Assembly (NCBI RefSeq): GCF_009914755.1 | Contig: NC_060930.1 | Source of the DNA: the human T2T-CHM13v2.0 reference genome, Homo sapiens | Direction: 5' to 3' (one strand) | DNA length: 64,000 nucleotides | Part shown: piece after piece, positions 10,079-13,086 of the stretch | Numbering within the stretch: the first letter of the stretch is position 1 | Layout: each line of letters opens with the position of its first letter | Made by a program: the position numbers and the translations under genes | The notes under the pieces: generated by a model | The model's database searches: none | What the model was told of the DNA's origin: nothing | The model's input: only the letters and a program-made list of their open reading frames with translations

Positions 10079-10105
10079 AGATACTGGCAATAGCTAAAGT
10101 GTTTT

Positions 10106-10428
10106 ATTGGTTTGTTGTTGTTGTTGTCATCGTTGTTGCTGTTGTTTGAGAAAGGGTCTCACTCTGTCACTCAGGCTGGAGTGCAGTGGTGCAATCTGGG
10201 CTCATTGCAACCTCTGCTTCCCAGGCTCAAGGGATTCTCCAGCCTCAGCCTCCTGAGTAGCTGGGACTACAGGGGTAAGCCACTACACTCGGCCAGTTTT
10301 TGTATTTTTTGTAGAAACAGGGTTTCGTCATGTTGCCTAAACTGATCTCGAACTCCCTGGCTCAAGCCATCTGCCTGCCTCAGCCTCTGAAAGTGCTGTG
10401 ATTACAGGCTTGAGCCACCTTACCCAGT
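10106..10428 (-). mobile_element. AluJ-like with (GTT)n tail
   Basis: Imperfect TSD caatagctaaagtgtttt / caagagctacagttttt. Confidence 0.9.
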
Positions 10429-10449
10429 CAAGAGCTACAGTTTTTAAAA

Positions 10450-10896
10450 TGCACTATTCACAATAGCAAAGACTTGGAAGCAACCCAAATGTCCAACAAT
10501 GATAGACTGGATTAAGAAATTGTGGCACATATACACCATGGAATACTATGCAGCCCTAAAAAATGATGAGTTCATGTCCTTTGTAGGAACATGGATGAAA
10601 TTGGAAATCATCATTCTCAGTAAACTATTGCAAGGACAAAAAACCAAACACTGCATGTTCTCACTCATAGGTGGGAATTGAACAATGAGAACACATGGAC
10701 ACAGGAAGGGGAACATCACACTCCGGGGACTGTTGGGGGGTGGGGGGAGGGGGGAGGGATAGCATTAGGAGATATACCTAATGCTAAATGACAAGTTAAT
10801 GGGTGCAGCACACCAGCATGGCACATGTATACATATGTAACTAACCTGCACATTGTGCACATGTACCCTAAAACTTAAAGTGTAATAAAAAAAAAA
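10450..10896 (+). mobile_element. 5'-truncated young L1PA (L1PA3-like)
   Basis: ORF2 C-terminus (MIDWIKKLWHIYTMEYY), G-rich 3'UTR, poly-A. Confidence 0.9.
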
Positions 10897-11526
10897 TGAT
10901 AGCAGTGGCAGTAAGTGGTTATTACTGCAAGGGATGAACTGTGAGCTTTCAGAATCACAGGTAATTGGGTTCTACCCTCTTCATTTCTCCTTGGGCATTT
11001 AGGTAAGAGAGGTCTCAGATGTCTGACTGAGTCAGACAGAAACTGTAAAGCCATTGGCTAAGTTGTTCAAGGGGATGTTAGAGCCAAAGCCAAGGCTTGT
11101 CTAGTGGGCACTGGTAAGGCAGTTAAGAGCTTCCAGAGTGTTGCTACTGAAAAAAAAAAACAAGGCTTCTGTGAAAGGATAAGGTGTTCACAGAATGGGC
11201 TAGTTGACATTAAGCTCCCAGTCTCGAGAAAATGTCTGTGTAGCAAGGTACGCTGTGAAAGCATTATACAACCCAACCCTATGGCATTTCCCTCTTAGGC
11301 TTTTATTTCAGCTCTGAGAGATCCAAGATTCAAGGTAAAAAAATGAATCATTAATTTCTAAACTAAGTACTCTGTCTATGCCTGCCTTTTACATCTACGA
11401 ATATTAGCTCCCAGAAGCTACATACACTTACAAAAATGGTGAAATCTTACTAAATATAATTTAGAATTATCATGGCCATTTAACAACACTACACTTTAAG
11501 ATGTACATTTAAAAATGGAGGCTCCT

Positions 11527-11780
11527 GGCTGGGCATGGTAGTTCACACCTCTAATTTCAATGCTTTTGGAGGCCAAAGCAAGAGGATCACTTGAGGCCAG
11601 GACTGGGCAACATAGCAAGACCCCTTCTCTACAAAAAATTATCTCTACTTGGGAGGCTGAGGCAGAAGGATCACTTGAGCCCAGGAGTTCAAGATTACAG
11701 TGAGCTATGATCATGCCACTGCACTCCAGCCTGGGTAACAGAGTAAGACCCTCTCTCTAAAAAAAAAAACCTAAAATAAA
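11527..11780 (+). mobile_element. AluJ with internal deletions
   Basis: Imperfect TSD aaaatggaggctcct / aaaatgagggctcct. Confidence 0.85.
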
Positions 11781-11927
11781 ATGAGGGCTCCTGGATTAGG
11801 CCCACCCAGAGATGCCCATTATTGTGCAGAAGCTTCTAAAATATTTCAAAAATGTTTTTATTGTCTCTTTCAAAAGACTACAAAACACAAATGAAAAGCT
11901 TAAGTGACTAATTGATAAGAAAAACTG

Positions 11928-12235
11928 GGCCGGGCGTGGTGGCTCACGCCTGTAATCCCAGCACTTTTGGGGGCCGAGGCGGGCAGATCACAAGGTCAGG
12001 AGATCGAGACCATCCTGGCTAACATGGTGAAACCCCGTCTCTACTAAAAATACAAAAAATTAGCCGGGCGTGGTGGCAGGCGCCTGTAGTCCCAGCTACT
12101 CCGGAGGCAGAGGCAGGAGAATGGCGTGAACCCGGCAGGCGGAGCTTGCAGTGAGCCGAGATTGCGCCACTGCACGCCAGCTTGGGCAACAGAGCGAGAC
12201 TCCGTCTCAAAACAAAAAAAAACAACAACAACAAA
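11928..12235 (+). mobile_element. AluY
   Basis: CpG-rich; gagatcgagaccatcctggctaac and ggcgtgaacccgg diagnostics; TSD aagaaaaactg at 11917-11927 and 12236-12246. Confidence 0.95.
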
Positions 12236-12247
12236 AAGAAAAACTGA

Positions 12248-12342
12248 GGCCAGTGGTAGTGGCTCATGTCTGCAATCCCAGAACATTGGGAGGTTGAGAA
12301 GGGTGGATCACCTGAGTCCAGGAGTTTGAGACTAGCCTGGGC
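12248..12342 (+). mobile_element. Alu 5' fragment truncated at a rearrangement junction
   Basis: First ~95 nt of an Alu, then an abrupt switch to antisense ERV leader. Confidence 0.85.
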
Positions 12343-13086
12343 TGGTATCTCATTGGCCACCAGAAACCCAAAAGTCAAGTTGCCTCTTAGAGCACAAACT
12401 AATACTTGTTACCCCAAGGTCAAATGCTCTCTTACAGGACAAACTAACCCTGTATTCAAAAGCCAATAATATCAGGGAGCTGAATCCAAAAAGAGCAGAG
12501 TCCAACCTTACAGGAACTTACAGCCCTAAGGACTCCGTGAGGAAGACAGGGGACCTCAAAAGGGGTAAACAGTGTCTTTCCTGCATCTCTCAAGAGGTCT
12601 TGTGAGTTGCCAACTATGTTCTTAAGGTCCCTTTTTATAGCTACCAGGACTGTCAAAAGACAAAACTGCAACAAACTCAAATATCTTTCTTGGTTTTTAT
12701 CTGTAATTCTAGAATTGGGCAATATTTTATTCTGTAAAATAGGATGAGAGTTCCGATGAGCTGAGCAGAAGAGGCTGGTTTTATAGGTAGAAATAAATTG
12801 AAGAAAGCAGAAACAGAAAACAAAAAGTGATCGGTCATTTCAAAGTTACTTTTCTTGTAAAGGTTAAAGCAAAGGGGAGTTCCTTATCATACTGGCTAAA
12901 ACAGTCCTGCTTGGAGATTTGGCTATTATCTCTCTCTCGATGTCTTGGAAGGTCATATAAAACTCTTAGTAGCTTGGTGGCATGAAACTTCAGCATAAGT
13001 AATCCCATTTTGGTTTGGTTTGGTTTGTTGGGCGTAGTGTAGGAGCTTAGTCCAAACCAATGGCCTCCTATAACATTTATTTAACA
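12341..13086 (-). mobile_element. MER93-like 5' LTR (12651-13086) with PBS-side leader (12341-12650)
   Basis: tgtcaaaagacaaaa...tttaaca; PBS-like TGG (ctaccaggac on +) next to LTR; outer flank acac at 13087-13090. Confidence 0.75.

What the first reader, a model, noticed from the sequence alone, without database searches (positions are those of the whole stretch)
10079..12350. Inverted 2.3-kb provirus segment bounded by a 10-bp inverted duplication with reciprocal CpG decay
Seen: plus-strand ERV piece A starts agatacTGgc (10079-10088). The minus-strand leader ends, read on its own strand, agatacCAgc (12341-12350). The two differ only as CG>TG and CG>CA decay of an ancestral agatacCGgc. The left junction overlaps an L1-like word (L1 tgtagattctgg versus tgtagatactgg here), and the right junction cuts an Alu at about nt 95. 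Inference, using recalled MER57-int order: leader and A were contiguous, and A was flipped by a staggered break or microhomology-mediated template switch. Because an L1PA5/6-like element forms one junction, the event cannot predate that L1.
Basis: partly seen in the sequence, partly recalled or inferred. Interest (0 to 1): 0.7.

Follow-up and report, generated by a model that had tools for sequence, protein, structure and literature searches.

The report
Ancient L1-driven shuffle of ape DNA
A 2.3-kb flipped piece of a dead retrovirus on human chromosome 6 is real and is one of several scattered pieces of that same provirus inside a 52-kb stretch lying between a young L1 element and its likely target-site duplication, so it likely records one L1-triggered reshuffling of DNA in an ape ancestor, a kind of event known from tumours.

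Summary
The flip and the 10-nt overlap are real: intact copies elsewhere in the genome run LTR-leader-word-A on one strand. A published human-macaque inversion list already holds the core of this piece (chr6_inv58; same as human in chimpanzee, gorilla, orangutan; inverted in four Old World monkeys; ancestral state left ambiguous). 'Reciprocal CpG decay' is not shown: 16 of 19 scored copies read TG, 1 CG, 0 CA. It is not a simple inversion. The provirus's two LTRs (sisters, 99/97; same 4-nt flank ACAC) lie in swapped order 26 kb apart, A continues at 43283, and an old L1 cut by the young L1 at 9247 resumes at 62201 with a 23-nt duplication, 52 kb away. A second, tail-less L1 piece of the same apparent age bridges another join (about 46280-47842). 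At least six joins are implied. Best reading (0.6): one aberrant L1 integration, after the Old World monkey split and before the orangutan split, rejoined several broken ends. No function shown. New variant of a known kind; interest 0.5.

The parts
7380..9246 (-). Old L1 (L1MA-like, name recalled), 3' part, interrupted by an LTR-like insert at about 7833-8792; cut at 9246 by the young L1
   Evidence: 82-88% to 9 of 9 best genome matches of the 62201 piece; other window L1s 65-77%
9224..9246 (+). Left copy of a 23-nt duplication ending in TTTT at an L1-endonuclease-like TTTT/CA site (likely target-site duplication of the young L1)
   Evidence: 20 of 23 identical to 62201-62223
9247..10078 (-). 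Young L1 3' end with poly(A), about 900 nt of the element, 60-nt internal deletion near its 5' end
   Evidence: (best matches 95-96%)
10079..10088 (+). Join 1: left copy of the 10-nt word, overlapping the L1 end (4 nt exact)
10079..12340 (+). Flipped fragment: provirus piece A (about 1 kb, non-coding) with nested Alu (about 10130-10428), L1 (10433-10895), Alu pieces (about 11527-11780), Alu (11928-12231) and the first 95 nt of an Alu (12248-12342)
   Evidence: core 10890-11959 equals published chr6_inv58
12341..12350 (-). Join 2: right copy of the word, last 2 nt shared with the cut Alu
12341..12650 (-). Provirus leader
12651..13086 (-). 5' LTR of the provirus; outer flank 13087-13090 reads ACAC
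13091..39157 (.). Stretch between the two outer LTR flanks; must hold at least one further join, not located (candidates 24853 and 29107; 36081 rejected)
   Evidence: inference; cut ends
39162..39595 (-). 3' LTR of the same provirus, polypurine tract on its inner side; outer flank 39158-39161 reads ACAC
   Evidence: best genome match, 81%; sister, 99/97
39596..42966 (-). Provirus piece C (3' internal part) with nested inserts
42967..43282 (+). Alu whose poly(A) tail forms the join between piece C and piece B
43283..44398 (+). Provirus piece B; starts where A ends in intact copies (8-14 nt overlap, the duplication of the cut Alu)
   Evidence: 5 of 7 rulers; 2 gave no usable match
44480..46279 (+). 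Older L1 5' part behind a U4 snRNA fragment
   Evidence: best matches 90-91%
46280..47842 (+). Young, tail-less internal L1 piece (1.56 kb) fused to the older L1; likely cDNA bridge
   Evidence: best matches 95-96%, all ending at 47840-47843; change point 46280; mismatch 16.2% to 5.7%
47843..48238 (+). LTR of another family lacking its first roughly 22 nt, joined to the young L1 piece
   Evidence: (against L050)
62201..62223 (+). Right copy of the 23-nt duplication; no L1 remnant to its left
62201..62395 (-). Continuation of the old L1 cut at 9246
   Evidence: begins 16-23 nt before the end of the 8793-9246 piece on 8 of 9 rulers

Best explanation
The flipped 2.3-kb piece is one fragment of a single non-coding provirus whose pieces lie out of order across a 52-kb block between a young L1 and its likely target-site duplication, and the block was likely reshuffled in one aberrant L1 integration in an ape ancestor. 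Shown: the flip, the overlap at the word, the swapped sister LTRs with matching flanks, the A-to-B continuity, the split old L1 with its 23-nt duplication, the chimeric L1 at 44480-47842, and (from a published table) the ape versus Old World monkey orientation of A. Inferred mechanism: L1 endonuclease nicked the old L1 at TTTT/CA and primed cDNA; instead of closing on its own reciprocal end, the cDNA end joined, by a few bases of microhomology, an end made by a staggered break in the provirus (the word, kept on both sides). Other breaks (in the Alu, beyond piece B, in the flanks) were joined in a chain. A second, tail-less cDNA, possibly twin-primed on the same RNA from the LTR end at 47843, invaded the older L1 by homology near 46280. 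The reciprocal end carrying the 23-nt duplication was joined last, 52 kb away. About 200 nt of Alu, about 520 nt of provirus and the older L1's 3' part were lost.
For: Colinearity in copies. LTR pair: best genome match of each other among 40 scored of 970 candidates, sisters 99/97 among 13 rows like the LTR pair of intact copy L034, flanks ACAC/ACAC in a family whose intact copies show 4-nt flanks 3 of 4 alike. A/B overlap on 5 of 7 rulers, B-to-C gap 517 and 534 nt on L034 and L038. Old L1 halves colinear with a 23-nt duplication, 20 of 23, and no L1 remnant left of 62201, which a later break of a finished insertion would rarely leave. Two young L1 pieces, both with best matches of 95-96%, non-overlapping on one ruler (3-902 and 2780-4349 nt from the 3' end) and on opposite strands. 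A is inverted in rhesus, crab-eating macaque, baboon and green monkey and not in chimpanzee, gorilla, orangutan (PMC11092980 table S7; lift-over offset checked on two gene spans). The same signatures (split duplication, twin-primed L1 halves bridging distant breaks) are reported in tumours and cell clones.
Against: No other primate sequence was available, so simultaneity of the joins is inferred. Table S7 lists only A; no row covers piece B (next row is 0.5 Mb away), although my reading predicts B is inverted in monkeys too. The two young L1 pieces are 1.9 kb apart on the element, a large gap for twin priming, and same age is not same RNA; best-match identities rest on 40 scored of 5774-8678 candidates. 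The join inside 13091-39157 and the original neighbours of 47843 and 62200 were not located. The 23-nt duplication has 3 mismatches and is long for an L1 target site. The Alu-tail join at 43283 could be older.
Confidence: 0.6

Rival explanations
1. Stepwise history: the young L1 inserted normally; later, separate events (recombination between the older L1 and a young L1, an inversion between Alu tails, a block move, the small flip) built the present order over millions of years.
For: Four inversions suffice for the four-block order; Alu tails and L1 homology sit at two joins; the region holds other plain deletions (HSP90AB pseudogene cut at 24853, its rest not found nearby among 75 matches).
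Against: Needs a later break exactly between the L1 5' end and the duplication, leaving no L1 base at 62200, and repeated reuse of the same breaks; leader and A ends abut to within 10 nt although joined to different partners.
Confidence: 0.2
2. Same moment, different route: the block was excised as a DNA circle, opened at another point and captured in the break made by the L1, with its ends flipped during repair.
For: The swapped LTR order is the A-B to B-A pattern described for circular intermediates (PMC7450558, abstract); the block sits inside the L1 target site.
Against: No donor copy remains (next-best matches 76-79%); two inverted fragments and an L1 bridge are not predicted by a simple circle; no donor scar was found (flanks outside the window not read).
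Confidence: 0.13
3. One reading: an isolated 2.3-kb inversion by a staggered break or template switch, with both copies of the word later losing a CpG in opposite directions; the other broken repeats are unrelated.
For: Flip and overlap are real; the published list shows only this piece as inverted; one copy (L008) has CG at the site.
Against: Turning the piece back would abut an L1 end on a cut Alu, not restore either; their partners are at 62201 and 43283; sister LTRs are in swapped order; 16 of 19 copies have TG and none CA.
Confidence: 0.05
4. Assembly error.
For: Repeat-rich region (44% masked in the hub table).
Against: The duplicated ends have diverged (2 of 10, 3 of 23), which mis-joining cannot make; hg38, chimpanzee, gorilla and orangutan share A's orientation.
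Confidence: 0.02

Closest known systems
chr6_inv58, human-macaque inversion list, PMC11092980 table S7 (seen: the table rows for chr5-chr6, header, methods section 40, passages)
   Same: hg38 chr6:85,718,055-85,719,124 maps to window 10890-11959, the core of the flipped piece; apes like human, four Old World monkeys inverted.
   Different: Listed as a 1.07-kb simple inversion of ambiguous lineage (gibbon, marmoset, squirrel monkey NA); no mechanism, no other joins. The provirus anatomy shows the ape state is the derived one.
L1-mediated inversions and complex rearrangements in tumours and cell clones (bioRxiv 2024.08.27.596794, seen: abstract and section 9; bioRxiv 2024.12.14.628481, seen: section 9 and passages)
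   Same: Poly(A) L1 at one join, target-site duplication split between distant joins, tail-less L1 piece at another join, local inversions, microhomology.
   Different: Those are somatic and often megabase-scale or between chromosomes; this one is germline, shared by great apes, confined to about 52 kb, and read from broken repeats.
Germline chromothripsis with an SVA at a breakpoint (Nazaryan-Petersen 2016, seen only as described in review PMC4859970, passages)
   Same: Retrotransposon insertion at a join, Alus at other joins, about seven breakpoints.
   Different: One patient, two chromosomes, 110-kb deletion; here fixed, local and mostly balanced.
Circular-intermediate segmental duplications (PMC7450558, seen: abstract and outline)
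   Same: Swapped block order in an evolutionary human rearrangement.
   Different: Those are duplications with the donor kept; here no donor copy was found, and there are inverted fragments and L1 bridges.
Chimeric L1 formed by cDNA invading a resident L1 (Gilbert and Moran, recalled; paper not held)
   Same: Older 5' part fused to a younger part at a homologous position.
   Different: Recalled from cultured cells; not checked here against the text.

Membership tests
One ERV1-type (MER4-group-like) provirus | Two LTRs that are each other's nearest relatives | tested here: met
One ERV1-type (MER4-group-like) provirus | Matching 4-nt target-site duplication on the outer LTR flanks | tested here: met
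   ACAC at 13087-13090 and 39158-39161
One ERV1-type (MER4-group-like) provirus | Polypurine tract before the 3' LTR; internal pieces tile intact copies without overlap | tested here: met
   gap of about 520 nt between B and C
   No repeat library; by recall the LTR starts like MER31/MER67 rather than MER57
Simple two-break inversion | The two joins are reciprocal: both outer sides were neighbours of the inverted piece's other ends | tested here: not met
   L1 end and Alu end are not partners; partners at 62201 and 43283
Reciprocal CpG decay | CG at the site before duplication | tested here: inconclusive
   TG 16, TA 2, CG 1, CA 0 of 19 scored copies; this copy's own earlier state is unknown
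L1 (TPRT)-mediated complex rearrangement | Poly(A)-tailed L1 at an endonuclease-like site forming a join | tested here: met
   TTTT/CA site read from the two duplication copies
L1 (TPRT)-mediated complex rearrangement | Target-site duplication split between two distant joins | tested here: met
   20 of 23 nt, 52 kb apart, no L1 remnant at the far copy
L1 (TPRT)-mediated complex rearrangement | Second, tail-less piece of the same L1 RNA at another join (twin priming) | tested here: inconclusive
   Same apparent age, non-overlapping, opposite strand, but 1.9-kb gap
L1 (TPRT)-mediated complex rearrangement | All joins arose together with the insertion | not testable with these tools
   No primate genomes; only A's orientation is published
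Chromothripsis (criteria recalled) | Ten or more clustered breaks with random order and oscillating copy number | tested here: not met
   At least six joins in 52 kb; works like a small version but is not filed as such
Circular-intermediate duplication | Swapped block order | tested here: met
Circular-intermediate duplication | Donor copy kept elsewhere in the genome | tested here: not met
   No close second copy of leader, A or LTR among scored candidates

The most novel reading that the evidence does not exclude
A single L1 RNA, primed twice in an ape ancestor's germ line, bridged two distant breaks while at least six DNA ends in 52 kb were rejoined in a chain; the product became fixed in great apes. 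It is a fossil of the L1-driven chromoplexy seen in tumours, and such events can be found genome-wide by looking for target-site duplications split over tens of kilobases.
Probability: 0.4. Interest if true: 0.7.

Novelty: new variant of a known kind. Interest (0 to 1): 0.5.

Why it matters
It turns a bare, 'ambiguous' row in an inversion catalogue into a dated, polarised event and suggests that some small lineage-specific inversions are the visible tips of larger L1-triggered shuffles that alignments mis-describe. If confirmed, L1-driven multi-break repair, described in tumours, cell clones and one patient, has also left fixed changes in the human lineage. No functional effect is shown; the block lies 38 kb from SNHG5 and carries one annotated enhancer (37060-37561).

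Tried and rejected
tRNA scan: none. ORFs in 10079-13090: three of 80-119 aa, none suggesting a gene. The word as a purely L1-derived look-alike: rejected, the leader-side copy has the same private AT. 36081 as a join of this event: rejected, an 11-nt duplication flanks the whole L1-plus-Alu unit (33851-33861 and 36363-36373). Piece E (25140-29107) as a duplicate of piece C: rejected, 77% identity. Linking E to the LTR at 47843: untested, held loci too short. Rest of the HSP90AB pseudogene nearby: not found among 75 matches. Local CpG decay rate from window L1s: only 5-6 sites per copy, uninformative. Macaque position of inv58 lies 39 kb downstream of a straight-line guess from the neighbouring rows, the direction a local shuffle predicts, but such interpolation over 0.9 Mb is too coarse to count. 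Gibbon Strand-seq list (PMC9712629, table S2 chr6 rows seen): nothing at 85.71-85.77 Mb, uninformative at that resolution. The macaque Strand-seq supplement (PMC7605249) could not be read and bioRxiv supplements were not seen; either may bear on prior description. DNA outside the window was not read, so no donor scar was sought.

Full report
Observation. Searching the window's own genome with the leader and with piece A found related proviral copies. In 9 of 11 loci the LTR, leader and A lie in order on one strand, while in the window the leader is minus and A is plus. A natural intact copy used as query splits on the window into exactly these two opposite-strand parts. In the copies the word lies between leader end and A start. 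Both window words carry AT at positions 3-4, which 0 of 19 scored copies have (21 examined, 2 dropped for no alignment), so both descend from this provirus's own word. The L1 on the left explains the first 4 nt exactly and 8 of 10 loosely; the Alu on the right explains the last 2. The duplication is therefore 4-10 nt: a staggered break with both ends kept.

The CpG idea. At positions 7-8 the copies read TG 16, TA 2, CG 1, CA 0 (one search printed the same columns shifted by one). A family-wide CG should leave TG and CA about equally. So either this copy had gained a CG before the break and lost it both ways, or the left word is unchanged and the right took two changes, or the left TG came from the L1. 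The first two seem about equally likely (my estimate); nothing here shows reciprocal decay.

It is not a simple inversion. Turning the piece back would place the L1 end against a cut Alu. I looked for the missing partners. (a) The LTR at 12651-13086 has its best genome match inside the window at 39162-39595, same strand (81%, next 79%; 40 scored of 970). In a tree of 13 LTR rows the two are sisters (99/97), as are the two LTRs of intact copy L034 (100/97); the pair of L038 was not resolved. The first has the leader on its inner side, the second a polypurine tract, and their outer flanks both read ACAC; intact copies L034 and L038 have 4-nt flanks 3 of 4 alike. They are the 5' and 3' LTR of one provirus, but in swapped order, so the 26 kb between them holds at least one more join. 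(b) On seven longer natural copies the window's pieces map as 5' LTR and leader (minus), A (plus), B 43283-44398 (plus), C 42966-39596 and 3' LTR (minus). A's end and B's start overlap by 8-14 nt on 5 of 7 rulers, which is the duplication of the cut Alu; B's end and C's start are 517 and 534 nt apart on L034 and L038. (c) The old L1 that the young L1 interrupts at 9246 resumes at 62201-62395: the nine best genome matches of that piece match 8793-9246 at 82-88% against 65-77% for other window L1s, and on 8 of 9 the two pieces overlap by 16-23 nt. The overlap is a 23-nt duplication, 20 of 23 identical, ending at the young L1's poly(T), at a TTTT/CA site. No L1 sequence lies left of 62201 above shuffled scores. 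So 52 kb sit between the L1's 5' end and its likely target-site duplication. (d) The L1 at 44480-47842 changes character at about 46280, inside ORF1: mismatch to a window L1 falls from 16.2% to 5.7%; best genome matches are 90-91% for the 5' part and 95-96% for the 3' part, the same as for the L1 at 9247. The young part has no tail, ends at 47842 on an LTR lacking its first roughly 22 nt, and does not overlap the other young piece on a common ruler.

Date and polarity. Table S7 of PMC11092980 lists chr6_inv58, hg38 chr6:85,718,055-85,719,124, as like human in chimpanzee, gorilla and orangutan, inverted in rhesus, crab-eating macaque, baboon and green monkey, NA in gibbon, marmoset and squirrel monkey, lineage 'Ambiguous'. 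The spans of SNORD50A/B and SNHG5 given in two papers (passages) and in the hub table give one offset, which puts the row at window 10890-11959, provided the two human assemblies have no large indel in the 40 kb between. That is piece A from the end of the nested L1 to the nested Alu. Since monkeys keep A on the strand that intact copies predict, the ape state is derived: after the Old World monkey split (about 25 million years, PMC7605249 abstract) and before the orangutan split (about 14-16 million years, recalled). This fits the 95-96% age of the young L1 (L1PA4-6 by recall). Against my wider reading, the table has no row for piece B; a piece both moved and inverted may have been dropped by its reciprocal-net filter (passage), but that is untested.

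Mechanism. At least six joins are implied: L1 to A (10079), Alu to leader (12341), one inside 13091-39157, Alu tail to B (43283), older L1 via young cDNA to LTR (46280-47843), and 62200 to the duplication. Four separate inversions would be needed for the four-block order. Two facts point to one event tied to integration: the duplication is whole, with no L1 base beside its far copy, and the A and leader ends abut to the base although each joined a different partner. Tumour and cell-clone studies report the same signs: split duplications, local inversions, tail-less L1 at the reciprocal join, twin-primed halves of one L1 repairing two distant breaks (bioRxiv 2024.12.14.628481 section 9 and passages; bioRxiv 2024.08.27.596794 section 9). 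I give this 0.6, a stepwise history 0.2, capture of an excised circle 0.13, the isolated inversion 0.05, assembly error 0.02. That the two young pieces come from one RNA is weaker (1.9-kb gap).

Novelty. The flip is catalogued; its polarity, the overlap and the larger shuffle I did not find described in ten full-text searches (one search targeted the locus, one search returned none), which miss most subscription papers and several supplements. The kind of event is known from tumours, cell clones and one patient (review passages). A fixed, local, ape-ancestral case read from broken repeats is a new variant of that kind. No function is shown. Interest 0.5.

Noticed in passing
window 24100-24853, Alu 24854-25130, piece E 25140-29107: The HSP90AB1 pseudogene lacks its 3' two-thirds and runs through an Alu without matching duplication into a second provirus interior (E), itself cut at 29107; either place may be the hidden join.
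   Followed up: partly
window 44403-44480: A U4 snRNA 5' fragment sits directly before the 5' end of the older L1: a possible U4-L1 chimeric retrocopy.
   Followed up: no
window 14423-23800 (-): A third, MER4-like (name recalled) provirus with two LTRs (77% alike) and many nested inserts, apparently in normal order.
   Followed up: partly
window 41068-41620: An L1 3' end fused to an Alu fragment replaces about 330-570 nt of piece C: a likely insertion-mediated deletion.
   Followed up: partly
window 33851-36373: An old L1 and a tail-less Alu are flanked together by one 11-nt duplication, as if inserted as one unit.
   Followed up: partly
window 25201-25560: Young L1 with a 46-nt inverted internal piece at its 5' end, a classic twin-priming insertion inside piece E.
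   Followed up: no
window 62395: The old L1 continuation ends after 195 nt with no clear target-site duplication; it may be a seventh join.
   Followed up: partly
window 28037-28896 (-): SMIM11P1 retrocopy sits inside piece E with a recognisable duplication and a nested Alu.
   Followed up: no
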